Shown: positions 1-10,867 of the stretch, piece by piece
How positions within the stretch are numbered: position 1 is the first letter of the stretch
Layout of the letters: every line of letters begins with the position of its first letter
Source of the DNA: a virus
Lineage: Duplodnaviria; Heunggongvirae; Uroviricota; Caudoviricetes
Virus record (IMG/VR): IMGVR_UViG_2531839662_000017
Coordinates: 1-14,361 of that record
DNA: 14,361 nucleotides
Direction: 5' to 3' (one strand)
Made by a program: the position numbers and the translations under genes
Notes under the pieces: model-generated
What the model was told of the DNA's origin: nothing
What the model saw: only the letters and a program-made list of their open reading frames with translations
Databases searched by the model: none

Positions 1-696
1 TCAATCTACTTTTGCAACACTTTGCTTTGAAAATGCCGCCTTTTGTTTTGAACGCGTTCTCATTACAAACAATAAAGCCCCACTATCCAGTCGGTAAAAA
101 ATGTGTTTCATTGCAACCCAGTGACGAGTAAATGTTTTGGACCAGTTTTTAGTTGTCACTCCCGCCAGTAATGCCAGCTCCTGGTATTCATAACCTTCCC
201 CACCAAAAAGTTCTGCTTTTACTGCCTGCGCCGCCAGCCAGATTAATTTTTTCAGGCGTTCCTGCGTTTTCCCTGCAATTTTTCTGGTACCGGATTGAGT
301 ATTAAATTCGTTCCACGCCCACTGTGTTATCGCGATCTGATGCTCCCAGCAAATGTTTCCGCCGTAACACCACAACAACCAGGCTTTATGATGCTCTTCA
401 AGAGACAGCACAGCCCGCCGCCATGATGATGTCGAAAACTCAACCGGGCTGACCAGGGCAATTGATGAGCCTTTCGCCAGTGATTGTTTTCCCGGGATTG
501 GTGGATTATCCCGCGTTATCATTTTTCCAGTCACTTCATCGCGGTACCGGATTTTTTTACGCCTGTAACGCCCTGTATCAAACATGGCATTCTCCTGCCA
601 GGCTTCAAGCTGACCTTTTGTTGCCCCACTCAAATCAGCGGTGGCGATAATGAGCTGCTCGCGCACAAACTGTAAATACTGGTTATTCATGCGCAC
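1..696 (-). CDS. Late-gene antitermination protein Q-like (lambdoid)
   Basis: 231-aa ORF that ends the minus-strand operon directly after rusA, the standard position of Q. Its start region overlaps the rusA stop (ATGA, alternative start at 690), suggesting translational coupling. Stop codon at 1-3, so the gene is complete. Assignment rests on position and size, not a confirmed motif. Confidence 0.55.
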   Translation of the reverse strand: MRMNNQYLQFVREQLIIATADLSGATKGQLEAWQENAMFDTGRYRRKKIRYRDEVTGKMITRDNPPIPGKQSLAKGSSIALVSPVEFSTSSWRRAVLSLEEHHKAWLLWCYGGNICWEHQIAITQWAWNEFNTQSGTRKIAGKTQERLKKLIWLAAQAVKAELFGGEGYEYQELALLAGVTTKNWSKTFTRHWVAMKHIFYRLDSGALLFVMRTRSKQKAAFSKQSVAKVD

Positions 697-1052
697 TCCA
701 ATTCTGTGATTTTTATCCCCAGCCGCCCACCAGGAACGAGCTGACCGCGCACAATATTGATTTCATCAAGCTGCTCGTCGTCTATGAGTAGTCCGGCATG
801 CGTCAGCGCATCCAGTGGTGCTTTCAGGATATTGTCCAGGTCACGACGACGTTTATCCGGTGGCTCTGCAATCACCTTTATCGCCAGCCGTCCGGACAGG
901 TTTAATTTCAGCCGCTGCTGGCGAACAATTAGCGCCACATCACGGCGATAACGCTCACCGGCTTTTGATACAAAATATGTGCTGCCACGACGTCGCCAGT
1001 AGGTGTTCACCGTTGGCGGGTAAGGCAAAACAAATTCTATGCGTTCGGTCAT
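687..1052 (-). CDS. rusA: Holliday junction resolvase RusA
   Basis: 121-aa translation has RusA-family hallmarks (PDKRRRDLDNILKAPLDALTHAGLLIDDEQL; basic N-terminus YWRRRG) and matches RusA length. Sits in the nin region next to Q, as in DLP12-type prophages. Confidence 0.85.
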   Translation of the reverse strand: MTERIEFVLPYPPTVNTYWRRRGSTYFVSKAGERYRRDVALIVRQQRLKLNLSGRLAIKVIAEPPDKRRRDLDNILKAPLDALTHAGLLIDDEQLDEINIVRGQLVPGGRLGIKITELECA

Positions 1053-2108
1053 TTATGCTTTCCACTTCAGGACACCCGAATTTCTCGCGTGCATTAAAAA
1101 ACGAATCAGCAACAACAGCTGGCTGCCGTGTTTTTCTTCAAAATCTTTTACCCCGGTGTGCAGTTCGTTATGACATTTACGGCACAATGGAATAACAAAC
1201 AAATCGTCAGCCTTTGTTCCCATCCCTCCCAGTCCATGACCAATGATGTGATGCGGATCATCTGCCTGATTACCGCACGTCATGCATTTCTGCGTTTTTA
1301 CCCAGCGCGTGTATACAGGCATCTCTTCCCGTTGTGGTTTCTGGCGCTGGAGATACTGAGCCGGTGACTCCGGATCAACGGCAATGCTGACCACTGTCTT
1401 TTCCTGTGGCGGGTTTTGCTGGTGGGCGTGAGGCAGCGGCGCAAGATTTTTTGTGCGCTGCTTCAGTATGCTGGTGGCGGTCTGCTCTCCCGGCACGATG
1501 TCGCTCTCGCGGTATACTGAGCGAATTTTTTCCGCGCGCAATCCCAGCGAACGACGTAATACCGTCTCCGGTAGTGCGTCCGCTACGTTATTTATGGTTG
1601 CCCACCAAGATAATTCAGCCAGCGATAATTCCCGCTCCTGCGTGCCATTCATTGCATGGTGTATGACGTCAATCATCCATGCTGACAGGTTTTGATGAGC
1701 AAGTTGCTCGAGTGATTCGGATGTCTGGTCACGCAGCTGGTTGTCGCAGTGCCAGCACAACACCATTGCGCCGGTACCATAACGGTGAATAACGGTTTCG
1801 CTGTGATGATAATCGCCGTGTGGCCACTGGCAGGATTTAACATGACGCAGGAGCCAGTCAGACAGTGCACCAGCGCCGCCGGCAGCACGAATCACCCGCT
1901 CATCGCTGAAAAATGGCAGCAGAGATTTGTCTTCCGCCAGCGGCTGGCGAACGGCAGGAACGACCCCGGACGGCAGACCGCGCATGCTTTTTGGCTCCGG
2001 TTCAACCAGCACTCTGCCGTTATGGAATACCTGCATGGATTCACGACCTGGCTTAACGATAACCACCCCAAGTTCCGGCACCAGAACAGGTCGAAGTAAT
2101 ACCCGCAC
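1053..2108 (-). CDS. DUF968/YdfU-like phage protein with C-terminal Cys/His (HNH-like) motif
   Basis: 351-aa ORF tightly packed between the rem-like gene and rusA (1-nt and 0-nt gaps). C-terminus carries CMTCGN...HHIIGHG...CRKCHNELH. Size and position resemble YdfU of Qin-type prophages (recalled, not searched). The true start may be internal. Confidence 0.6.
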   Translation of the reverse strand: MRVLLRPVLVPELGVVIVKPGRESMQVFHNGRVLVEPEPKSMRGLPSGVVPAVRQPLAEDKSLLPFFSDERVIRAAGGAGALSDWLLRHVKSCQWPHGDYHHSETVIHRYGTGAMVLCWHCDNQLRDQTSESLEQLAHQNLSAWMIDVIHHAMNGTQERELSLAELSWWATINNVADALPETVLRRSLGLRAEKIRSVYRESDIVPGEQTATSILKQRTKNLAPLPHAHQQNPPQEKTVVSIAVDPESPAQYLQRQKPQREEMPVYTRWVKTQKCMTCGNQADDPHHIIGHGLGGMGTKADDLFVIPLCRKCHNELHTGVKDFEEKHGSQLLLLIRFLMHARNSGVLKWKA

Positions 2109-2109
2109 G

Positions 2110-2382
2110 TTACCTCCAGATGCGTTGCTGGAATGTGCGGGACGGACGCGGTGGGCGTTCGGAATAAGGGAGCCTGACAGAAATTATCCAGTGTCGGAAG
2201 TCAGGGCTGAGGTCTTTCTGAAAGTCGTACCCACGCCTGCGGTAGTTCTGAATCAGCCATTCGGCCTGTTCTTCAGTGCATGGGGCATGCTGGTACCAGT
2301 CATATTTGAATGTATGAGAACGCCGCCCGTGCCAGCTGGCAAGGTCGGTATCAGAATTGTGATGTTTGGTATTGTGCGCCAT
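2110..2382 (-). CDS. Small phage protein, rem-position ORF
   Basis: 90-aa ORF immediately upstream of the DUF968 gene in the same operon, in the position rem occupies in Qin-like prophages. No recognisable catalytic motif. Confidence 0.5.
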   Translation of the reverse strand: MAHNTKHHNSDTDLASWHGRRSHTFKYDWYQHAPCTEEQAEWLIQNYRRRGYDFQKDLSPDFRHWIISVRLPYSERPPRPSRTFQQRIWR

Positions 2383-2455
2383 CGGTTTTCTCTGCTGGCG
2401 CAGCAGGTGCCAGTTGTTCAGGCTAGCCTGTAGATTGTAAACCAGAATACGTAAA

Positions 2456-2480
2456 ACAAAAAACCCGCCGAAGCGGGTTA
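2456..2480 (-). terminator. Intrinsic terminator downstream of the HTH-ImmA gene
   Basis: Minus strand reads ACCCGC-TTCG-GCGGGT followed by TTTTTTGTTTT (6-bp GC stem, tetraloop, U-tract), starting 4 nt after the stop codon at 2484. Confidence 0.7.
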
Positions 2481-2483
2481 TGC

Positions 2484-3605
2484 CTAGTGAATTTTGCCTC
2501 TAAGAGTTCGGTAAGATTGTAGTGAAACAACATCACCACTTCCTGGCAGTTCATGAACCGCAGGAAGATCATCTCCTACTAACTCATAAAAAATGTCCAC
2601 TTCTATATCCATTTCATCAGCTATACGCTGTGGGTCGTATCCTAACTCTTCAAATAAAAACGATAAAGCCCGACGGAATAACTCAGGACGCTCATGAGGG
2701 ATTAGATAATCTTCTTTTTCATCAATAGCTTCCCCTTTCCGTTTCAACCCCATAAATGCAGTTCTGTACTGCTCATCAGTCAAAAGTCCTAATTGATGAG
2801 CCCTGTAAACAATGGCAGCCTTACTTACTTTCCATGTCAACTTAAATTGGCTTAGTCCCTGCCAATTTATCCTCCCCCCCACAGGTCTTGGAAAATATTT
2901 CGCCATCGACGTTCTGGGAAGCAACAGAGCAGAGGCAAAACGGTTTGCCTGGGATTCAGTTAATCTATCCCCAGTAGAAATTCCTTCATGAAGAATCAAA
3001 TGGGCAACCTCATGAGCAATATCAAAGCGTTGCCTACAAGGTGAATTTTTAGCTGTATTTCGAACAATAAAAGGCCTTCGTAGAGGAACAGACAGTGCAT
3101 CTACTTCATCCGAAACGGAGTCAAATGAAGTAACAAACGCCCCAAGTTTCTCGGCAAGGCGAGTCATATTTTCAATTGGGCCAAAGCCTAAGCCCCACTC
3201 AATACGACATTTTTCTGCCGCTCGCTCGATATCTTCTTGTGTATGGACACGAAATTCAGGAAATCGAACAGGTGACAAATTAAGGTTATCTTCAAATACA
3301 TCAATAAAACGACGATAAAACTCAGCCTTAGCGAGTGTTGATAGCTTCGTTGACATCCTTGTCGAGGCGCGTTTACGAAAATGTACAATCTCTTCATTAA
3401 CAGGAGAATGTTCCTGCCCTTCGAAAAAGGCGGGCTTCACGCGCAAAACCTCGGCTAATTTATTTATAAGCTCTGGGGATGGAGTAGCTGAACCAGACTC
3501 CAGTCGCTGTACATACTGGCGTGTTTTTTCAACCTTCTCAGCAACCTGCTCCAGAGATAGCTCGTGATACAGACGAGCAAGTCTTAAATTAGTACCGTTA
3601 AACAC
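2484..3605 (-). CDS. Fusion protein: N-terminal XRE-family HTH plus ImmA/IrrE-type (COG2856) zinc metallopeptidase
   Basis: 373 aa, GTG start preceded by GGGTGA. N-terminal Cro/C1-type HTH (LSLEQVAEKVEKTRQYVQRLESG). HEVAH (HExxH) zinc-binding motif at residues 198-202, encoded at 3000-3014. Second gene of a two-gene operon, 10-nt gap after the upstream ORF. Confidence 0.85.
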   Translation of the reverse strand: MFNGTNLRLARLYHELSLEQVAEKVEKTRQYVQRLESGSATPSPELINKLAEVLRVKPAFFEGQEHSPVNEEIVHFRKRASTRMSTKLSTLAKAEFYRRFIDVFEDNLNLSPVRFPEFRVHTQEDIERAAEKCRIEWGLGFGPIENMTRLAEKLGAFVTSFDSVSDEVDALSVPLRRPFIVRNTAKNSPCRQRFDIAHEVAHLILHEGISTGDRLTESQANRFASALLLPRTSMAKYFPRPVGGRINWQGLSQFKLTWKVSKAAIVYRAHQLGLLTDEQYRTAFMGLKRKGEAIDEKEDYLIPHERPELFRRALSFLFEELGYDPQRIADEMDIEVDIFYELVGDDLPAVHELPGSGDVVSLQSYRTLRGKIH

Positions 3606-3615
3606 ATTTCACCCA

Positions 3616-4209
3616 CTATTTGCTATTTTGTTTCTTTTCCTTCTCAGTCTTAGACGCACTGATAGGTTCTAGTTCGATAGGTACCGGTGCTGGAGGTACA
3701 TCATCGACAGAGTTCAGCATAACAACACGGTCCGCACCATATGTCCAAGTTGACACGATCTCACCAAACACGTTATAGCCATTAAAAATGACTCTACCAC
3801 CCTCGCCTTCAAATTCAGGCTTTTCAACCACAAAGCGATGCATAGTTGGAGTAGTCTCCTCTGACTCAAAGAGTCGATCAGCATCATTTCTTTTGAAAAA
3901 ACCGCGTTTCTTGGGGTTATCTGCGTCATCAGTAAAGAAACGAATAGGGACATTCCCAATTGAAAACGTAAGATCCATGCCAGGATTAAGTAGTCTTAAC
4001 CAGTCATATGTCTTTCGTACGCACATTTGTAGCAACGCCTGCCGCTGACGCCCAAATGTACAACCACCACGAGTGTAATTATCATCATAGGGCGATGACA
4101 ATAACTCATGAGTAATATCCTGTATCCTGAGCAACTCCTCAGCTATAATGGTTAAACGCTCCTCTGTTAACTCAGGAAAGAACTCCCAAGGGAATGGATG
4201 GTTCTGCAT
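3616..4209 (-). CDS. Hypothetical protein, upstream partner of the HTH-ImmA gene
   Basis: ORF track gives 3616..4257 from a TTG. The ATG at 4207-4209 (MQNHPFPWEF...) has a GGAG Shine-Dalgarno 8 nt upstream and is preferred, giving 197 aa. I recognise no family. Codon usage is lower-GC than the phage backbone. Confidence 0.65.
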   Translation of the reverse strand: MQNHPFPWEFFPELTEERLTIIAEELLRIQDITHELLSSPYDDNYTRGGCTFGRQRQALLQMCVRKTYDWLRLLNPGMDLTFSIGNVPIRFFTDDADNPKKRGFFKRNDADRLFESEETTPTMHRFVVEKPEFEGEGGRVIFNGYNVFGEIVSTWTYGADRVVMLNSVDDVPPAPVPIELEPISASKTEKEKKQNSK

Positions 4210-4258
4210 AGACACTTCTCCGCCTAATCCGTGCAAAAAACGACTTTTGTCAACCAAG

Positions 4259-4287
4259 ATATTGGTGCATATTCATAATTTTGTCAA
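4259..4287 (-). promoter_or_regulatory. Candidate sigma70 promoter of the two-gene cassette
   Basis: Minus-strand TTGACA (4287-4282), 17-nt spacer, CAATAT (4264-4259), about 45 nt upstream of the preferred ATG. The -10 is weak. Confidence 0.3.
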
Positions 4288-4290
4288 CCA

Positions 4291-4315
4291 ATAAAAAACC
4301 CGCCGAAGCGGGTTA
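4291..4315 (-). terminator. Intrinsic terminator downstream of the hok remnant (identical copy of the 2456-2480 hairpin)
   Basis: Same ACCCGC-TTCG-GCGGGT plus T-run on the minus strand. The 23 nt at 4293-4315 are identical to 2458-2480. Confidence 0.65.
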
Positions 4316-4382: not shown

Positions 4383-4502
4383 TTACTCCTCAGGTTCGTA
4401 AGCTGTGAAGACAGCGACCTCCGTCTGGCCGGTTCGGATTCGTACCTCGCAGAGGTCTTTCCTCGTTATCAGTACCGCAACAATTTCGTATTCATGATTC
4501 AT
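4383..4502 (-). pseudogene. hok-family toxin remnant, 5'-truncated (HokD/RelF-like C-terminus)
   Basis: Minus-strand translation ...IVAVLITRKDLCEVRIRTGQTEVAVFTAYEPEE* matches the conserved Hok C-terminal half. Only 39 codons are in frame from an ATG (MNHEYE...), an in-frame TGA lies just upstream, and the hydrophobic N-terminal helix is missing. Homology ends where the AT-rich DNA begins (about 4480). A perfect 9-bp hairpin at 4354-4375 lies in the 3' UTR. Confidence 0.55.
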
Positions 4503-4659
4503 TTCATCTAAAACAGTTCATAAACCTAAATAAATTCAAAAAATCACAACACAAATAAATATAAATTATCTCATCCTGAAGAACGATAGGATTATTTAGA
4601 ATTAATAACAATTAATGTAACAATAATTATCAATCCAGATTATTCAAATAAAATGTCAT

Positions 4660-5706
4660 TTACCATATGGAGTTGTGAATGAACTTTAATTCATTTTTTA
4701 TTTTGTTAACAGATAAATTCACGGATGTCCTAACTCTATTCACAGTCATTGCATCTCCTGGATTTAACAACTCTAATGGTTTAGACTTAGCACTTGACAT
4801 TCTGCCACTACCCAGAAAATCATCAAGAATCACAATGTGATTATTAGGATCATCTGTTGTAAAATTACTAATATTTTGTCGAATTACCTCTCTTACAGCT
4901 TCGATGTACATTTTTGTCTGTTGATTTGGTTTATTCCTTGCTCCTGCCACTGTTGACCATCCGCAATGGGTAATAACCACCATCTGAATTTTTGGTGTAT
5001 GGCCATCAGACGGCATTATCTTTCTAAATTCTGATGTTGGTTTAGTCAGAGTATCAATAAGTAATCTTAATGAATTAATCGATTGCTGATCTGTCCTCAC
5101 TGGAACTATTAAAGCATCTGTTGCATGCCAAGATAAATGCGTCGCTCCAGAGAAAAAAGGTGATGTATCAATTAACGCTTTTGTAGTACCAGTTTCAACC
5201 ATTTCTCTGGCTATTTCTTTCTTCAGAGAAAAAAGAATTGTATCAATAACAACCTGCTGAGTAGCCCCAGAAATTGTTCTGGCTTGAGCCAGAGCATTCG
5301 CCATTTGCGTAGGTAGAAGATAAAGTTGACTATCAGATTGAATAAAATAGTTATTCTTGCCCGCAAACCAAGCATTAGTTGATGATACTAGCTTTGCAGC
5401 ACGCGTTGCAAATCCAAGCCCTGGAACAAAATAAGGCATTAAGAGGTCATTTGCAGTTGTGCTAGACGAAGATGCATAATTATTGTCAAAAAAATATGAT
5501 AAATTTCCTTGCGGGCACGTATCCACGATTAATGCGTTATCCGCCAAATATGACAGATTAAAAGTTAAAGATGTCTTACCAATGCCTCCCCGTAAATTAC
5601 ATACTGTATATTTATCATATTTCGGCAAATTAAGACTTCTTACATTACCGTCAGCAACTTCGAATTGACGCTCTATCAGAGCATTAACATTTGATTCACT
5701 AGTCAT
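4660..5706 (-). CDS. ParA/MinD/BcsQ-like P-loop ATPase (deviant Walker A), AT-rich accessory gene
   Basis: 348 aa with VCNLRGGIGKTSLTFNLSY (Walker A of KGGxGK[ST] type, with R replacing the signature K as in BcsQ) followed by IVDTCPQGNL (ParA-type D-x-PQ-N). The gene and its flanks are markedly AT-rich compared with neighbouring phage genes. Confidence 0.7.
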   Translation of the reverse strand: MTSESNVNALIERQFEVADGNVRSLNLPKYDKYTVCNLRGGIGKTSLTFNLSYLADNALIVDTCPQGNLSYFFDNNYASSSSTTANDLLMPYFVPGLGFATRAAKLVSSTNAWFAGKNNYFIQSDSQLYLLPTQMANALAQARTISGATQQVVIDTILFSLKKEIAREMVETGTTKALIDTSPFFSGATHLSWHATDALIVPVRTDQQSINSLRLLIDTLTKPTSEFRKIMPSDGHTPKIQMVVITHCGWSTVAGARNKPNQQTKMYIEAVREVIRQNISNFTTDDPNNHIVILDDFLGSGRMSSAKSKPLELLNPGDAMTVNRVRTSVNLSVNKIKNELKFIHNSIW

Positions 5707-5736
5707 ATCGCCACCATTAGTTTTACACTTTTATTG

Positions 5737-5765
5737 ATGATATGGAAAACTAACCTAGTTGTCAA
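5737..5765 (-). promoter_or_regulatory. Near-consensus sigma70 promoter for the ParA-like gene
   Basis: Minus-strand TTGACA (5765-5760), 17-nt spacer, TATCAT (5742-5737), about 30 nt upstream of the ATG at 5706. Confidence 0.5.
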
Positions 5766-5913
5766 CAATGGATTAAAAAACAAACACACAAGCGTTTATC
5801 AAAAGCACCTTGATTGGTGATACTACCGTGTCTTTCAGCCAAACAGTTCAGTATGTAAAGCGAATCCAACATCAATTAAGAACGTTTTCAGCGCTCCCCC
5901 AGTTGTCTAGATG

Positions 5914-6091
5914 TCAAACTTCATGCGCTCTCCTGTCGAAATAAACGTACTGATTAATCATGCCCAAGGACATTTCGCGTTTTACAGCGATATCACGGCG
6001 GGGAACTCCACACTGATGAAGCTTCCGCACTAGCTCAATATCGCTTTGCGGATGTTTTTTTGATTGGTTATAACCCCCCCCCTCTTAACAT
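5914..6091 (-). pseudogene. Small HTH ORF (weakly NinH-like), split by a frameshift at a G9/C9 homopolymer
   Basis: Minus strand reads ATG-MLRGGG into the G9 run and hits a stop. Removing one G gives a 58-aa ORF MLRGGGYNQSKKHPQSDIELVRKLHQCGVPRRDIAVKREMSLGMINQYVYFDRRAHEV* with an HTH-like core. The NinH resemblance is weak and from memory. Confidence 0.35.
6074..6082. repeat. C9 (minus-strand G9) homopolymer tract
   Basis: Nine consecutive C residues counted directly in the sequence, lying inside the frameshifted small ORF. Confidence 0.9.
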
Positions 6092-6192
6092 CCTATTGAT
6101 ACCCAGTTCCTGCGCTTTCGCTCTGACAGCATAACTAGAACGATCAATCAACCCTCCTATGCTTTCGACCGTCAACGCGTCTACACAATTGC

Positions 6193-6648
6193 CTAAGCGC
6201 CATGATTTCCCTCATGCACAACCTGTTCACCGAATGTCTCTCGAAAACCATTCTGGTAAAATGCCAGTACACGCTGCATAGCTTCGCTCTTCCGGCACTC
6301 GCGACAGATTATATTCAGGCGCCTATCGTAGCGACGCATTTCTCCGTCTGGTAATGACCAGATAAGGTCCGGATCAACCACAGATGGTTTCTTCAGATTT
6401 GCCCTTGAGAGTTTTTTGCGGGCGTTTTGCCAGTCCTTACGAGCCTGTTCAGACGGGAATAACCCGTAGCCAGAGTTATATACATCGCCACTGGCAACCA
6501 GCTCTCTGGCGATAACACTCATCAGATATCTTGTCGCACCAGTTTTCGCTTCCAGTTGCCGTAACGTCTCGCGCCCGCTCTGGCGTACCAGCTCAACAAC
6601 CTGCCCTTTAATTTTTTCTCGCTCTTCCTGTGTAAATACTTTTGCCAT
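6193..6648 (-). CDS. Hypothetical nin-region phage protein
   Basis: The ORF track extends to 6714, but the ATG at 6646-6648 (MAKVFTQEE...) has a GGGAGG Shine-Dalgarno and removes the overlap with the upstream gene, giving 151 aa. No family recognised. Confidence 0.55.
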   Translation of the reverse strand: MAKVFTQEEREKIKGQVVELVRQSGRETLRQLEAKTGATRYLMSVIARELVASGDVYNSGYGLFPSEQARKDWQNARKKLSRANLKKPSVVDPDLIWSLPDGEMRRYDRRLNIICRECRKSEAMQRVLAFYQNGFRETFGEQVVHEGNHGA

Positions 6649-6664
6649 AAGCCCTCCCCAGGAA

Positions 6665-7435
6665 TCACTTTTCCGGCACAATACGACTGGAGGAATCGAC
6701 AATCTGTCGGACAATATCCCGGTGCTTGTTCAGCTCCCGCAGCGCGGCGCAAACTCGCTCCCACTTCTGGGCATGACTTTTCGCCCGGCGCAGTTCGCGG
6801 TTTGCCATATGCAGCGATGGTAAAATCAGGCCATCAGCTCGTGTTTCAGTGAACGATGGCAGCGACTGCACAATGTCCGCCACAGTTTCTGTTTTAATAT
6901 CTTCCTGTGTTGCAGCTTCCTGTACTGGTAACGCAACACTTGCTGGCTGAGGAAAGGCTTTACCATCAGTTTCCGCTACCAATGCAGCTTTCGGCTCTGC
7001 TGGTAAATTATCGCCCGGTATGCAGTAGCGAAATTTACCGTTCTGGTTTACGCGTGCCAGCCGCCCCGTTGCGGTTACTACCGCCAGCGTGGAAGCAACC
7101 TTGCGAGTGCTGACACCGAACTTACCCGCCAGTTCCTCACACGTTTTAGCTCCCTCCTGACCGATAAACTCAATCATCATGTCAGCGGTAACTTTTCGTT
7201 CGACCTCCCTGGTTAGCACATCCTGTACTTCAGATTGTGCTGGCTGCTCTTCGGCTACCCCTGATTCACCTTCGCCAGCCACACGCCAGGTGTATACGCT
7301 TTTATCAACGAAGCCAGCCTTTTTCAGTTCCCACAGCTCGTTCAGTACTTCTTCACGACTGATATCAAGTCGCGCAGCCAGCTCTACCGACGTGGCTTTT
7401 CCCATCGCTTTCAGTGCGTCAAAAACGGTCTCCAT
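6665..7435 (-). CDS. Hypothetical phage protein with N-terminal winged-helix-like region
   Basis: The ORF track start at 7486 overlaps the DnaC-like gene. The ATG at 7433-7435 ([13 protein letters not shown]...) has a GGAGG Shine-Dalgarno 8 nt upstream, giving 256 aa. The N-terminus has a helix-turn-helix-like pattern ([28 protein letters not shown]). Confidence 0.6.
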
Positions 7436-7457
7436 TAAAATTTCCTCCCGGTAAAAA

Positions 7458-8204
7458 TTACTTCTCAATACCTGGCTGACCAACATTCGGGCGCCAGCTC
7501 TCCCAGTTAAAATTCACCCAGCGCCCGCCGTTCATGGTCATGCGATCCATAATCCGCTCGCCGAGCAATGTTTTCATGGCCTCATAGTTCAGGTTTGTCA
7601 GCATCCCCACGCTGCGCATCGACGCTGTCCGGCGATCAACAATCTGGTGCAGTACCACCTGCTCGTTTTTCGTCTCGCGCTGAATACCAATTTCATCAAG
7701 AACCAGCAGATCCACTTCGCACAGTTCCCGCAAAAATTTTTCGCCTGATTGCCCGTCGTCATAGCTGGCGTGTAGAGCACTCATGACATCAGCCACGGTA
7801 ACCACAATCACTGTCTGGCCATCTTTCAGCAGGCGATTCCCGATAGCCGCCGCTAAGTGGTTTTTCCCGGTACCAGGTTTTCCGCTGAATGCGAAATTTG
7901 TGCATCCGGTCATCAGTTCATCGGCGATGGATTTCGCCTGGCTCAACGCGTATCGCTGGCCGTCATTCTGCACCTGGTAATTCGCAAACGAGCACTTGCG
8001 GTGCAACGGCTGGATGCCGGAGCGATTCAGAATTTTTTCCACCCGCAACTGACGATTCTGGCGGTTGATCTCCTCGCAACGCTTCTGGCCTTCTGCAAGT
8101 TGCCACTCGCGCCACTCGTCCACTGTTCGGTATGGCGCGGTTACATGCTGCGGAGCCAGCTTACGGATGCGTTCAAGAACACCGCCTGTCGCAATATTTT
8201 TCAT
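7458..8204 (-). CDS. DnaC-like replicative helicase loader (IstB-type AAA+ ATPase)
   Basis: 248 aa with Walker [16 protein letters not shown] and Walker B LLVLDEIG. Follows the O-like gene by 6 nt with a GGGGG Shine-Dalgarno. Confidence 0.85.
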
Positions 8205-8210
8205 GCTTCG

Positions 8211-9158
8211 TTACCCCCTGAATCCCGGCGGAATTTCGGTGTCCGGTTCAGAAATGTGATTCACGCAACGCTGTACAGGCGAACGCCCCAGACGAATAAC
8301 CAGCTCATCCCATTTTTCGCGAAGCTTTGACGGGCTCATGACGTTTTTTACCCAGAATGGATCCCGCTGTACCCGACCAAACATTTCGCAAATTTGTCTG
8401 TGAGTTCTGCCATCCAGCATCCGCATTGTGCGCACATCATTGGCCCATGCAGTCCAGTTGGGTTCTTTCGGTCGCATGATTTCGCCATCATCGCTGGCAG
8501 CCTGCTCGTAAAGACTCACGATTCGTCCCCAGATCCACTGCGCACACGCTAAATCCTCCTGGCTGCCCCACTGGCGTTTTTTCGCACTGAACACAACCGC
8601 GTCAGGGTGTCGGGTTAAAAAATCCTGTTCAGCCGTCTGCGGGTCCGGTTGCGAAGCGTCCGGACGAAAAGATCTTTTATCTGACGGATCAGGTTTTAAT
8701 ACTGACGGATCGGGGCCAACCATCGCCCCCCTATCCGACTGTTTTTTATCAATGGTTGATCCATCAAAATTTGAGGGGTCAACCGTTGAGGGGGCAATAT
8801 TTGACGGGTCATTTTTTGCCTGGCTAATTTTTCTTTTCGGTTTATATGCCTCACGCGCCGCCGCTGCTGCTGCTTCGAGTTTTTCCACATTAAGGCGGTA
8901 GATATTGCTTTCATTACGCCCACCGACCTTACGTTCCTCCTTCTTCAGCCAGCCGTTCTTTTCCAGTTCCGCTATCGCCGCTTTAACCGTTGATTCACTC
9001 TTTGCTCCAATCTGACGACGAATGGTCTCCACTGCAGGCCATGACACACCTTCGTCATTGCTGTAATCTGCAAGGCGAGCCATTACTGCCACCCTGGATA
9101 AGATCATGCCGGTGAAGGCACACCCTTCCCAGACAAGACCATGAAGCTTGCTGCTCAT
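8211..9158 (-). CDS. Replication initiator, lambda O-like (origin-binding protein)
   Basis: 315-aa ORF just upstream of the DnaC-like gene. The DNA encoding its central low-complexity linker (DPSN/DPSV/DPSD repeats) contains iterons, as in lambda O. Confidence 0.7.
   Translation of the reverse strand: MSSKLHGLVWEGCAFTGMILSRVAVMARLADYSNDEGVSWPAVETIRRQIGAKSESTVKAAIAELEKNGWLKKEERKVGGRNESNIYRLNVEKLEAAAAAAREAYKPKRKISQAKNDPSNIAPSTVDPSNFDGSTIDKKQSDRGAMVGPDPSVLKPDPSDKRSFRPDASQPDPQTAEQDFLTRHPDAVVFSAKKRQWGSQEDLACAQWIWGRIVSLYEQAASDDGEIMRPKEPNWTAWANDVRTMRMLDGRTHRQICEMFGRVQRDPFWVKNVMSPSKLREKWDELVIRLGRSPVQRCVNHISEPDTEIPPGFRG
8681..8848. repeat. Putative phage replication origin: iterons plus AT-rich segment inside the O-like gene
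   Basis: Five copies of a 10-bp motif yTGAsGGrTC at 8681, 8702, 8771, 8786 and 8801 (the last three exactly 15 bp apart), clustered GATC sites, and an adjacent T-rich stretch at 8811-8848. Confidence 0.5.
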
Positions 9159-9181: not shown

Positions 9182-9607
9182 TTAGTGCATCACCACGGCA
9201 TTTCCCGCCGGACCACCACGATTCATCTGATTGAAACCAGCGATCGCCACTGCGACAAAATCATCAGCGTCTCTCACCAGTCGTTCCCGCATCTCCACCA
9301 GCTCCCGAAAATAGGCTGAACTGTGGCTGCGCATTCGGGCCACCAGCAGAGGTGGCATTGCCTTTTCGATCGCCGGTAACAGCGCCTGAATTTTTTTAAC
9401 CGCATCAGGGGTGTCTTTCTCCACCCAGCGGAAAATTTTCTGAGTATTGCGAGCCAGGGCTTCCGGATGCCTGTCGTCATATAGCTCTGGGAACGTCATA
9501 CCAAGCTCAAAATAAGCCCGGGTTATTTCAGCTGCTGGAACTTTTTCGCCATCAGGACGCGCCCAGGCATTCATCGCCATGCGGATGTGTTCATGCTTGA
9601 TTTTCAT
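9182..9607 (-). CDS. ydaT: YdaT-like protein (CII-position regulator)
   Basis: 141 aa beginning MKIKHEHI. Overlaps the upstream Cro-like gene by ATGA (9604-9607) and sits between cro-like and O-like genes, the lambda cII position. The name is from recalled Rac/CP-933P annotation. Confidence 0.55.
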   Translation of the reverse strand: MKIKHEHIRMAMNAWARPDGEKVPAAEITRAYFELGMTFPELYDDRHPEALARNTQKIFRWVEKDTPDAVKKIQALLPAIEKAMPPLLVARMRSHSSAYFRELVEMRERLVRDADDFVAVAIAGFNQMNRGGPAGNAVVMH

Positions 9608-9906
9608 GAATCAACTCCATCAGATAAGCATGCACTACAATCACCTTCAGCATGAACTACATGTGTTTGCCCCAAACGAATGCCGCTCGCATACTCAGGC
9701 CAAATAAGCTCCCAATCATGGGGTCGTAGCTCCGCCCTACTTACTTGGCCTTCCGTCGCAGATTCGATCATAAGGGCGCGGGTTGGAGATATAGCTGCTC
9801 GTCCAGACGCCATTTGCGATAAGTAAGATGGCGATACACCAAGTCTGGCCGCGAATTTCTTAGCATCACCAACCCTCAATGATTTAATAAACTCTTTTAA
9901 TGTCAT
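9604..9906 (-). CDS. ydaS: Cro-like HTH regulator (YdaS-like)
   Basis: 100 aa with HTH KKFAARLGVSPSYLSQMASGRAAISPTRALMIES. Divergent from the repressor gene across an operator-bearing intergenic region. Confidence 0.65.
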   Translation of the reverse strand: MTLKEFIKSLRVGDAKKFAARLGVSPSYLSQMASGRAAISPTRALMIESATEGQVSRAELRPHDWELIWPEYASGIRLGQTHVVHAEGDCSACLSDGVDS

Positions 9907-9916
9907 ACCTTCCTCG

Positions 9917-9997
9917 GTTTAGTGTTTTTTTGCGAGTTTAGTGTTTAATAAACCATTAAGTCAAGTATTTGCTTGTTTAGTGATTACTAAAGATAAT
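9917..9997. promoter_or_regulatory. Right operator/promoter region: three direct repeats GTTTAGTG(T/A)T plus divergent promoters
   Basis: Repeats at 9917-9926, 9936-9945 and 9975-9984. Candidate repressor promoter TTGCTT (9969-9974), 17 nt, GATAAT (9992-9997), placing the transcript start near the ATG at 10004 (leaderless, like lambda PRM). Candidate cro-like promoter on the minus strand: TTGACT (9964-9959) with -10 TAAACT. Confidence 0.45.
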
Positions 9998-10003
9998 TAC
10001 CAC

Positions 10004-10375
10004 ATGCAAAAAAAAGAAATTCGCCGTTTACGTCTCAAGGAGTGGTTTAAAGATAAAACTCTGCCACCCAAAGAGAAGAGCTACCTATCTCAACTAATGA
10101 GTGGGAGGGCCTCGTTTGGAGAAAAGGCTGCCAGAAGAATAGAGCAAACATACGGGATGCCGGAAGGGTATCTGGATGCGGAATACGCAGAACAACCGGA
10201 AGTTTCTCCACCACATGCAGGGTTAACGTCTAATCAACTGGAATTATTGCAGATTTTTTCAGCCTTCCCTGAGGATGAGCAACGCCAGATAATCAGCGAG
10301 TTAAAGCAGAAAAAAGAATCAATGGAAGATCTCATAGCGAGATGGATTGCGGCGCAAAAATGCCGCCGCGCCTGA
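10004..10375 (+). CDS. paaR: CI-like prophage repressor (PaaR-like HTH regulator), no S24 peptidase domain
   Basis: ATG at 10004 preferred over the GTG at 9941, which would read through the operator repeats. 123 aa with HTH KEKSYLSQLMSGRASFGEKAARRIEQ. First gene of a three-gene operon with the ParE-family toxin-antitoxin pair. Confidence 0.65.
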   Translation: MQKKEIRRLRLKEWFKDKTLPPKEKSYLSQLMSGRASFGEKAARRIEQTYGMPEGYLDAEYAEQPEVSPPHAGLTSNQLELLQIFSAFPEDEQRQIISELKQKKESMEDLIARWIAAQKCRRA

Positions 10376-10395
10376 GTTATAAAACCGGAGGAAAC

Positions 10396-10587
10396 ATGAA
10401 TAGAGCCCTTTCACCAATGGTTTCTGAATTTGAAACCATTGAACAAGAAAACAGTTACAACGAATGGCTGCGTGCGAAAGTAGCAACGAGCCTTGCAGAT
10501 CCGCGCCCAGCAATTCCCCATGACGAAGTTGAGCGCAGAATGGCAGAACGCTTTGCTAAAATGCGCAAGGAACGGAGCAAGCAGTAA
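10396..10587 (+). CDS. paaA: Small antitoxin partnered with ParE toxin (PaaA-like)
   Basis: 63 aa (MNRALSPMVSEFETIEQ...) with a GGAGG Shine-Dalgarno. Stop at 10585-10587 lies 1 nt before the toxin ATG. I recall this as the PaaA antitoxin of the paaR-paaA-parE systems in O157:H7 prophages. Confidence 0.65.
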   Translation: MNRALSPMVSEFETIEQENSYNEWLRAKVATSLADPRPAIPHDEVERRMAERFAKMRKERSKQ

Positions 10588-10588
10588 A

Positions 10589-10867
10589 ATGTTACCCGTG
10601 TTATGGCTTGAAAGCGCAGATACCGACCTAGATGATATAACTAGCTATATTGCTCGTTTCGACATAGATGCGGCTGAACGCTTATGGCAGCGATTAAGGG
10701 GTTGTGTGCTGCCGTTATCCGAACATCCGTATTTATACCCACCAAGCGACAGAGTACCTGGCTTGCGTGAGATTGTAGCCCACCCTAACTATATAATTCT
10801 ATACCGCGTAACAACATCAAGCGTTGAAGTAGTAAACGTGATCCACGCAAGACGCCAGTTTCCCTAA
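10589..10867 (+). CDS. parE: ParE/RelE-family toxin
   Basis: 92 aa with a ParE-like C-terminus (HPNYIILYRV...VEVVNVIHARRQFP), translationally coupled to the antitoxin. Confidence 0.8.
   Translation: MLPVLWLESADTDLDDITSYIARFDIDAAERLWQRLRGCVLPLSEHPYLYPPSDRVPGLREIVAHPNYIILYRVTTSSVEVVNVIHARRQFP

What the first reader, a model, noticed from the sequence alone, without database searches (positions are those of the whole stretch)
2484..4287. Two-gene accessory cassette: unknown protein plus HTH-ImmA/IrrE metallopeptidase fusion, candidate undescribed defence or addiction module
A self-contained operon sits between the rem-like gene and the hok remnant: candidate promoter, a 197-aa protein of no family I recognise, then a 373-aa protein fusing an XRE HTH to a COG2856 HExxH peptidase, then a terminator. 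It is lower in GC than the surrounding phage genes and is not part of the conserved lambdoid nin set. HTH plus ImmA/IrrE proteins are known protease-coupled switches (ImmR/ImmA of ICEBs1, IrrE/DdrO, CapH/CapP of CBASS) and predicted antitoxin-like regulators. Here the two functions are fused and paired with a single unknown upstream gene, which may be an effector or toxin held in check or triggered by the fusion protein.
Basis: partly seen in the sequence, partly recalled or inferred. Interest (0 to 1): 0.8.

Follow-up and report, generated by a model that had tools for sequence, protein, structure and literature searches.

The report
Known RosmerTA toxin-antitoxin prophage cassette
The two genes are a RosmerTA toxin–antitoxin / anti-phage module riding as an add-on cassette in an E. 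coli prophage; the same gene pair was shown in 2020-21 to make the host ClpP protease essential, so the feature is real but already described.

Summary
On the minus strand a 197-aa gene (4209-3616) and a 373-aa XRE-HTH/M78 HExxH peptidase gene (3605-2484) form one operon with a promoter and a terminator. It is a 1,835-bp, 43% GC insertion just after the hok terminator.

It is not undescribed. PADLOC profiles match both proteins over their full length: RmrT at 5.5e-93 and RmrA at 4e-201, which is RosmerTA (Millman 2022). The window is 100% identical to E. coli UMNF18, whose antitoxin is WP_000481765.1. Rousset et al. studied that same protein in strain E101, paired with a near-identical toxin. 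There the module makes clpP essential, and a T46S change in the toxin relieves this.

The cassette is present in 23 of 5,426 complete E. coli genomes; the uninterrupted junction is present in 2,490. In relatives, RmrA follows RmrT in 28 of 28 loci, including a P2-like prophage hotspot.

New small points:
- A conserved pair of GGTTGACAAA boxes 34 bp apart overlaps the -35 element and about +1. I read it as the likely RmrA operator.
- The RmrT model shows only weak resemblance to restriction endonucleases.

The toxin's activity, the trigger and anti-phage activity of this subtype remain untested.

The parts
4293..4315 (-). Terminator hairpin of the upstream hok remnant (TAACCCGCTTCGGCGGGTTTTTT). 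It is the upstream copy of the duplicated junction that bounds the cassette.
   Evidence: -11.8 kcal/mol. The empty site in L002 has a single copy.
4279..4291 (-). Box 1, TTGGTTGACAAAA. It contains the perfect -35 hexamer TTGACA at 4287-4282.
   Evidence: 13-nt perfect direct repeat. GGTTGACAWA occurs twice in the window against 0.03 expected by chance. The box is conserved upstream of rmrT homologues.
4259..4264 (-). Candidate -10 hexamer CAATAT, 17 nt after the -35.
   Evidence: Read from the sequence. An 'AT' at the matching position before box 2 is conserved in 21 loci. Function is inferred.
4245..4257 (-). Box 2, TTGGTTGACAAAA, 34 bp after box 1, at about the predicted transcription start. 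With box 1 it is the candidate operator for the RmrA HTH domain.
   Evidence: 21 of 24 non-redundant loci carry a pair spaced 31-34 bp. RmrA binding is an inference.
4218..4221 (-). Ribosome-binding site GGAG for rmrT, 8 nt before the ATG.
3616..4209 (-). rmrT: 197-aa toxin (WP_001179381.1). T46, the site of the published suppressor, lies in the conserved DDNYTR motif.
   Evidence: PADLOC RmrT PDLC03929, 5.5e-93, residues 1-197 of a 198-position profile. phrog_5786, 2.9e-92. RefSeq annotation. Rousset et al.. Family alignment. AF2 model, pLDDT 82.6.
2484..3605 (-). rmrA: 373-aa antitoxin/regulator (WP_000481765.1). It has an XRE HTH, a linker with a conserved VHFRK motif, an M78 peptidase and a C-terminal region.
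   Evidence: PADLOC RmrA PDLC03943, 4.3e-201, residues 1-368 of a 370-position profile. Pfam. 31% identity to the experimentally verified RmrA of E. coli OLC-716. NCBIfam spr1629-family antitoxin, 4e-51, below the curated cut-off.
3423..3587 (-). XRE-type helix-turn-helix domain of RmrA (residues 7-61).
   Evidence: Pfam HTH_3, 1.5e-12.
2799..3155 (-). Peptidase_M78 (ImmA/IrrE) domain of RmrA (residues 151-269). The HEVAH codons are at 3014-3000 and the E217 ligand is in ESQANRFA.
   Evidence: Pfam, 8.4e-17. H198, E199, H202 and E217 are invariant in 5 RmrA sequences, including the verified one. Positions.
2874..2880 (-). G7 homopolymer inside rmrA (codons about 242-244). It is the site of a 1-bp deletion in two other genomes.
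2455..2480 (-). Intrinsic terminator of the cassette: the same hairpin as the hok terminator, followed by a U run. It is the downstream copy of the duplicated junction.
   Evidence: -13.8 kcal/mol, z -3.5.

Best explanation
This is a RosmerTA module, a two-gene toxin-antitoxin type anti-phage system, carried as a moron in the nin region of a lambdoid prophage of E. coli (UMNF18-type ETEC).

Shown here or in published work:
- rmrT and rmrA form one operon with its own promoter and terminator.
- RmrA is an XRE-HTH/M78 zinc peptidase fusion with an intact HExxH...E site.
- The same module, moved into K-12, causes a fitness defect when clpP is knocked down, and a T46S change in RmrT removes that defect. 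RmrT is therefore the toxic part, and its toxicity is normally held down in a ClpP-dependent way.

Inferred:
1. RmrA represses the operon by binding the two GGTTGACAAA boxes that overlap the -35 element and the transcription start.
2. RmrA neutralises RmrT together with ClpXP or ClpAP. Most likely it binds or clips RmrT so that the Clp protease removes it. Candidate contact sites are the conserved but unstructured loop at residues 93-122 and the tail at 160-180.
3. Phage infection disturbs this balance, for example by shutting off synthesis of the module or by loading or inhibiting Clp. RmrT then accumulates and stops the cell, aborting the infection and protecting the lysogen's kin.

The biochemical target of this RmrT family is unknown. 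It is a soluble alpha/beta protein, not the membrane-depolarising type of toxin found in Gordonia phage Kita.
For: Identity of the module:
- PADLOC RmrT at 5.5e-93 and RmrA at 4.3e-201, both full length.
- RmrA is 31% identical over 311 residues to the verified OLC-716 RmrA.
- The HExxH...E site is invariant.

Same module as published work:
- The window is 100% identical to UMNF18, whose RmrA is WP_000481765.1.
- Rousset et al. describe E101_02644 = WP_000481765.1 together with toxin WP_001179380.1, clpP essentiality, the T46S suppressor and transfer to K-12.
- E. coli alleles of the toxin differ by only 1-3 residues.

Family behaviour in the literature:
- A delta-rmrA construct could not be transformed.
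- Rosmer RipAB makes clpX essential in S. pneumoniae.
- rmrA and clpX are essential only in the Pectobacteriaceae strains that carry Rosmer.

Conserved pairing and regulation:
- RmrA lies directly downstream of RmrT in 28 of 28 loci, with RmrT identity down to 41%.
- GTTGACA boxes occur at 13.2 per kb in the upstream windows against 0.021 per kb elsewhere, and 21 of 24 loci have a pair spaced 31-34 bp.

Accessory and defence context:
- Cassette in 23 of 5,426 genomes against 2,490 with the empty junction.
- The pair sits between gpA and the portal gene in a P2-like Proteus prophage, next to cos, the position that Rousset 2022 describes as an anti-phage hotspot.
- It also sits in the nin region of a Phytobacter lambdoid prophage.
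Against: - Anti-phage activity has been shown for other Rosmer systems (OLC-716, phage Kita) whose toxins are unrelated in sequence to this one. I found no phage test of this RmrT subtype.
- How ClpP acts is not known. In S. pneumoniae the dependence is on ClpX rather than clearly on ClpP.
- RmrA binding to the boxes, RmrA cleavage of RmrT, and the trigger are all inferences.
- Box 1 is also simply a consensus -35 element, so part of its conservation may reflect promoter function alone.
Confidence: 0.85

Rival explanations
1. The module mainly serves the prophage as an addiction (post-segregational killing) system that punishes loss of the prophage, not as an anti-phage defence.
For: It has toxin-antitoxin architecture, is prophage-borne, and lies next to a hok locus. 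rmrA homologues are essential in strains that carry them. This subtype has not been tested against phages.
Against: In Rousset et al., 3 of 4 suppressors of clpP essentiality had simply excised the prophage and survived. That is not what classical post-segregational killing predicts. Relatives occupy a known anti-phage hotspot of P2-like phages. Other Rosmer systems do defend against phages.
Confidence: 0.12
2. The fusion protein is a prophage regulatory switch of the ImmR/ImmA type that controls induction or another phage operon, and the upstream gene is a regulated cargo gene rather than a toxin.
For: The domains are the same as in ImmR/ImmA, IrrE/DdrO and CapH/CapP (capP 2.8e-17, capH 5e-10). 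A split HTH plus ImmA pair occupies the same slot in strain STEC005.
Against: - The prophage has its own immunity region elsewhere in the window (about 9600-10400).
- The cassette is absent from most related prophages.
- It travels as a fixed pair through unrelated contexts.
- A point mutation in the upstream gene relieves toxicity.
Confidence: 0.02
3. It is a new, undescribed defence or addiction system.
For: RmrT has no Pfam, NCBIfam or PDB sequence match. RefSeq annotates it as hypothetical.
Against: Both proteins give full-length hits to PADLOC RmrT and RmrA models. Experiments on the same proteins are published. The family is named, and the precedent is cited by those who named it.
Confidence: 0.01

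Closest known systems
E101_02645 / E101_02644 toxin-antitoxin module of E. coli E101 (Rousset et al., bioRxiv 10.1101/2020.05.25.114553; published in Nat Microbiol 2021)
   Same: The antitoxin is the identical protein, WP_000481765.1. The toxin is an allele of the same 197-aa protein (WP_001179380.1 against WP_001179381.1), and E. coli alleles differ by 1-3 residues. Both are prophage-borne.
   Different: The host strain differs, and possibly one to three toxin residues. I could not read the E101 sequence itself.
RosmerTA of E. coli OLC-716 (Millman et al. 2022), the verified type system
   Same: Toxin-first two-gene operon. RmrA has the same length and architecture, 31% identity and the same HExxH...E site.
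   Different: The toxins are unrelated in sequence: 197 aa against 239 aa, with no significant alignment. Phage defence was shown for OLC-716, not for this subtype.
RipAB (Spr1630/Spr1629) Rosmer system of Streptococcus pneumoniae (PMC12795458)
   Same: The antitoxin has the same architecture, and RmrA matches the NCBIfam spr1629-family model over its full length at 4e-51. In both systems the toxin makes a Clp component essential.
   Different: The score of 174 bits is below the equivalog cut-off of 335. RipA acts on DnaN, whereas no target is known here. The dependence is on ClpX there and on ClpP here.
RmrTA of Gordonia phage Kita (Ernits et al. 2023, PMC10440598)
   Same: A phage-borne Rosmer pair with an ImmA-type antitoxin.
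   Different: The Kita toxin has a C-terminal membrane region and depolarises the membrane. The RmrT here is a soluble alpha/beta protein without such a segment.
ImmR/ImmA (ICEBs1), DdrO/IrrE, CapH/CapP
   Same: An XRE HTH plus an M78 metallopeptidase acting as a protease-coupled switch.
   Different: In those systems the two functions are separate proteins and the protease cleaves the repressor to turn on other genes. Here they are fused and paired with a toxin. Cleavage of anything by RmrA has not been shown.
SocAB type VI toxin-antitoxin system of Caulobacter (as discussed in PMC12795458)
   Same: Toxin activity is restrained through ClpXP, so the protease becomes essential when the toxin is present. 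This is a functional analogy only.
   Different: There is no sequence or domain similarity. SocA is a small adaptor, not an HTH-peptidase.
PD-lambda-2 (Vassallo et al. 2022, PMC9519451)
   Same: It contains an Xre-peptidase fusion next to a toxin-like gene and defends against phage.
   Different: It has three genes and a HigB-like first gene, and there the Xre-peptidase itself was the toxic component.

Membership tests
RosmerTA (Millman 2022; PADLOC/DefenseFinder Rosmer) | Antitoxin RmrA: an XRE-type HTH fused to an M78 (ImmA/IrrE) zinc peptidase with HExxH. | tested here: met
   Pfam HTH_3 at 1.5e-12 and Peptidase_M78 at 8.4e-17. PADLOC RmrA PDLC03943 at 4.3e-201, residues 1-368 of 370. H198, E199, H202 and E217 are invariant with the verified RmrA.
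RosmerTA (Millman 2022; PADLOC/DefenseFinder Rosmer) | A toxin gene RmrT (families are diverse) that matches a Rosmer toxin profile. | tested here: met
   PADLOC RmrT PDLC03929 at 5.5e-93, residues 1-197 of 198.
RosmerTA (Millman 2022; PADLOC/DefenseFinder Rosmer) | The two genes are adjacent on one strand as an operon, and the pairing is conserved among relatives. | tested here: met
   10-nt gap, one promoter and one terminator. RmrA lies directly downstream in 28 of 28 related loci.
RosmerTA (Millman 2022; PADLOC/DefenseFinder Rosmer) | The toxin is toxic and is neutralised by the antitoxin. | not testable with these tools
   Published for the same module: a fitness defect on clpP knockdown, relieved by repressing the toxin gene or by T46S. 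Direct neutralisation by RmrA is not reported there.
RosmerTA (Millman 2022; PADLOC/DefenseFinder Rosmer) | Protects against phage infection. | not testable with these tools
   Shown for OLC-716 and phage Kita systems with unrelated toxins. I found no test of this toxin subtype. Position in the P2 hotspot supports it indirectly.
spr1629 (RipB) family repressor/antitoxin, NCBIfam NF052239 (equivalog) | Score at or above the curated cut-off of 335 bits. | tested here: not met
   174.3 bits, 4e-51, full-length alignment. It is homologous, but not a member at equivalog level.
PD-(D/E)xK restriction-endonuclease-like fold (considered for RmrT) | Significant structural match and a recognisable D...(D/E)xK catalytic motif. 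| tested here: inconclusive
CapH/CapP (CBASS regulators) and ImmR/ImmA | A separate repressor and protease that control an adjacent CBASS or mobile-element operon. | tested here: not met
   The domains are fused in one protein. The capP (2.8e-17) and capH (5e-10) matches are far weaker than the RmrA match. There is no CBASS or ICE gene next to the cassette.

The most novel reading that the evidence does not exclude
The module works as a guard of the host Clp protease. RmrA continuously marks or clips RmrT, through its conserved unstructured loop or tail, for ClpXP/ClpAP degradation. Phages that inhibit or saturate Clp would then stabilise RmrT and trigger abortive infection. RmrT itself could be a very divergent restriction-endonuclease-like (PD-(D/E)xK) nuclease or a new fold. 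The conserved twin GGTTGACAAA boxes would be the RmrA operator that sets the basal level.
Probability: 0.2. Interest if true: 0.55.

Novelty: already known. Interest (0 to 1): 0.15.

Why it matters
For the scan, this is a correct detection of an accessory defence-type cassette, but not a discovery. The family is named and is recognised by standard defence-finding tools, and this gene pair has published genetics.

The open questions concern the Rosmer family in general:
- how a zinc-peptidase antitoxin neutralises its toxin;
- why Clp proteases become essential when the system is present;
- what this soluble RmrT does;
- what triggers the system.

The twin-box promoter/operator architecture and the conserved unstructured segments of RmrT, noted here, give concrete handles for those experiments. 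The duplicated terminator hairpin shows how such cassettes are swapped in and out after hok in lambdoid prophages.

Tried and rejected
- Sequence searches for RmrT found nothing: Pfam at E up to 10 on 39 family members, NCBIfam, and a PDB profile search at E up to 10.
- Foldseek against PDB and against viral models gave nothing below E 0.25.
- The afdb50 library was unavailable.
- Comparison with the verified OLC-716 RmrT gave no similarity.
- I looked for UMNF18 and other carrier strains in the supplementary tables of Millman et al. and found none; some of those files are truncated.
- I could not read the E101 toxin sequence itself, so 'near-identical' rests on the accession series, the shared antitoxin accession and the 1-3 residue spread among E. 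coli alleles.
- The 'rem-like' label for the neighbouring gene was tested against K-12 Rem and rejected.
- A clamp-binding motif in the conserved DxLF of RmrT was considered and rejected, because there is no Q at the required position.
- Rfam found nothing in the window.
- A second promoter using box 2 as its -35 was considered. No acceptable -10 follows it in the window, and the transcript would lose the ribosome-binding site.

Full report
**1. Observation**

The six-frame ORF list shows two minus-strand ORFs in the reported interval.
- The first runs 4257..3616 from TTG, or 4209..3616 from ATG, which gives 197 aa.
- The second runs 3605..2484 from GTG and gives 373 aa.

The ATG start of the first gene has GGAG 8 nt upstream. 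RefSeq annotates 197 aa, and the PADLOC profile aligns from residue 1 to 197, so 197 aa is the right reading.

Pfam finds HTH_3 at residues 7-61 and Peptidase_M78 at 151-269 in the second protein, and nothing in the first. HEVAH lies at residues 198-202, with E217 further downstream.

Upstream there is a perfect TTGACA at 4287-4282, followed after 17 nt by CAATAT. Downstream there is a GC-rich UUCG hairpin with a U run at 2479-2455, at -13.8 kcal/mol.

GC content is 0.43 in the cassette, against 0.53 and 0.52 in the phage genes on either side.

**2. What it is**

PADLOC profiles identify both proteins over their full length. The 197-aa protein is RmrT (PDLC03929, 5.5e-93) and the 373-aa protein is RmrA (PDLC03943, 4.3e-201). 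PHROGs has families for both.

This is RosmerTA, named by Millman et al. 2022. They describe it as an antitoxin with a zinc peptidase plus a toxin of unknown function, and they cite Rousset et al. 2021 as an earlier example of the configuration.

Their verified system comes from E. coli OLC-716. Its RmrA is 31% identical to the one here over 311 residues. Its toxin is unrelated to the one here, which fits the family's known toxin diversity.

**3. The same module has published genetics**

The window is 100% identical to E. coli UMNF18. There the two proteins are WP_001179381.1 and WP_000481765.1.

Rousset et al. (bioRxiv 10.1101/2020.05.25.114553, section 13) report the following.
- clpP is essential in strains E101 and TA054 because of a prophage module made of E101_02645 (WP_001179380.1, no predicted domain) and E101_02644 (WP_000481765.1).
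- Three of four suppressor clones had excised the prophage. The fourth carried T46S in the toxin.
- Repressing the toxin gene relieved the defect.
- Moving the module into K-12 reproduced the clpP dependence, unless the T46S allele was used.

The antitoxin is thus the identical protein. E. coli toxin alleles differ by 1-3 residues. T46 lies in the conserved DDNYTR motif of the family.

**4. Context and mobility**

The cassette is a 1,835-bp insertion immediately after the hok terminator. The 23-26 nt hairpin is present once in the empty site of strain TUM1880 and twice here, flanking the cassette.

The cassette is present in 23 of 5,426 complete E. coli genomes. The uninterrupted junction is present in 2,490. 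In strain STEC005 the same slot holds a different, split HTH plus ImmA-like pair.

Relatives of the RmrT-RmrA pair occur in several settings:
- the nin region of a Phytobacter lambdoid prophage;
- between gpA and the portal gene of a P2-like Proteus prophage, which is next to cos, the place Rousset et al. 2022 describe as an anti-phage hotspot;
- chromosomal islands in Aeromonas and in metagenomes.

The RmrT family has 435 representatives at 50% identity with E up to 0.001, nearly all about 200 aa long. In 28 of 28 fetched loci, from Gamma- and Betaproteobacteria and with RmrT identity down to 41%, an RmrA homologue follows directly on the same strand.

**5. Regulation (new detail, inferred function)**

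A 13-nt perfect repeat, TTGGTTGACAAAA, occurs twice, 34 bp apart, at 4291-4279 and 4257-4245. GGTTGACAWA occurs twice in the window against 0.03 expected by chance.

The same pair of boxes at 31-34 bp spacing is found upstream of rmrT in 21 of 24 non-redundant loci. GTTGACA occurs at 13.2 per kb in those upstream windows against 0.021 per kb in the rest of the loci.

Box 1 contains the -35 element. A conserved 'AT' just before box 2 fits the end of the -10 element, which puts box 2 at about +1. I read the boxes as promoter plus operator for autorepression by the RmrA HTH domain. This has not been tested.

**6. The toxin**

RmrT has no Pfam, NCBIfam or PDB sequence match.

An AlphaFold2 model built with 39 homologues has mean pLDDT 82.6 and pTM 0.74. 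It shows two long helices, six strands, a conserved but unstructured loop at residues 93-122, and a tail from about residue 160. There is no membrane segment, unlike the phage Kita toxin.

**7. How it most likely works**

Shown:
- The operon is intact.
- The peptidase active-site residues are present.
- RmrT toxicity is unmasked when ClpP is depleted.
- The Clp dependence recurs in other Rosmer systems.

Inferred:
- RmrA autorepresses the operon.
- RmrA neutralises RmrT together with a Clp protease.
- Infection upsets this balance and releases RmrT, causing abortive infection.

Survival of cells that excised the prophage argues against classical post-segregational killing.

**8. Verdict**

The claim of novelty is not. 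This is an already known system with published genetics on the same proteins. The unknowns that remain are the target of RmrT, the role of the peptidase, the trigger, and the phage range of this subtype. They are open questions for the Rosmer family as a whole.

Noticed in passing
window 2455-2480 and 4290-4315; L002 3060-3090; L003 3060-3085 and 4395-4420: The cassette is flanked by a duplicated 23-26 nt hok terminator hairpin. The empty site has one copy. In strain STEC005 the same slot holds a different cassette, with a degenerate upstream copy of the hairpin. The hairpin looks like the recombination joint used to swap morons after hok.
   Followed up: partly
L003 3407-4252 (E. coli STEC005): The alternative occupant of the same slot is a split pair: a 119-aa HTH protein and a 160-aa ImmA/IrrE peptidase, with only weak capH, capP and RmrA hits. 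No recognised toxin is present. A 57-aa Cys-rich ORF lies downstream at 3103-3276.
   Followed up: partly
window 2874-2880 (G7 tract in rmrA); L017, L018: Two of the 23 carrier genomes (ETEC4090 and 2011EL-1370-2), on different allelic backgrounds, have a 1-bp deletion in this homopolymer. It splits RmrA into 245-aa and 118-aa pieces while rmrT stays intact. This could be recurrent slippage or a sequencing error at a homopolymer.
   Followed up: partly
window 4486-5800 (gene 4660-5706, minus strand): An orphan 348-aa ParA-family ATPase lies in a 36.5% GC segment that truncates the N-terminus of hokD. Its best matches are phrog_164 and AAA_31, and it has only weak PADLOC hits. Strains with intact hokD (for example 504239) lack this segment, so it is a second, independent accessory insertion.
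   Followed up: partly
window 2110-2382 (minus strand): The 90-aa ORF sits at the position rem occupies in K-12 Qin but has no similarity to Rem. It belongs to phrog_1212, of unknown function.
   Followed up: yes
window 3616-4209 (RmrT residues 93-122 and 160-180): Two segments of RmrT are strongly conserved in sequence (D94, D95, P99, K101, F104, R107, D111, L113; and L165, P173) but are predicted to lack secondary structure and have lower confidence. They look like partner-binding or substrate segments.
   Followed up: no
window 10342-10867 and 9182-9607: The same prophage carries another toxin-antitoxin-like pair: a RelE/ParE-family toxin with a small upstream ORF. It also carries a YdaT-family gene that RefSeq marks as frameshifted in UMNF18.
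   Followed up: no
L015/L016 5001-6753 (Proteus mirabilis P2-like prophage): An RmrT-RmrA pair (57% and 72% identity to the window proteins) sits between the gpA replication gene and the portal/terminase genes. This is the cos-adjacent hotspot where P2 carries tin and old.
   Followed up: partly
L007 4432-6725: Directly downstream of one metagenomic Rosmer pair lies a second set of genes: a 95-aa protein, a 123-aa HTH protein, a 338-aa Peptidase_M78 protein and a 211-aa Peptidase_C1 protein. It may be another protease-switch module.
   Followed up: no
L004-L006 (Aeromonas veronii) 150-3740 and 5900-8609: The Aeromonas Rosmer pair is embedded among a DNA_pol_A-domain gene with three unknown genes, an HNH gene plus a methyltransferase, and a 1,732-aa DEAD/UvrD helicase fusion. 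This looks like a defence island.
   Followed up: no
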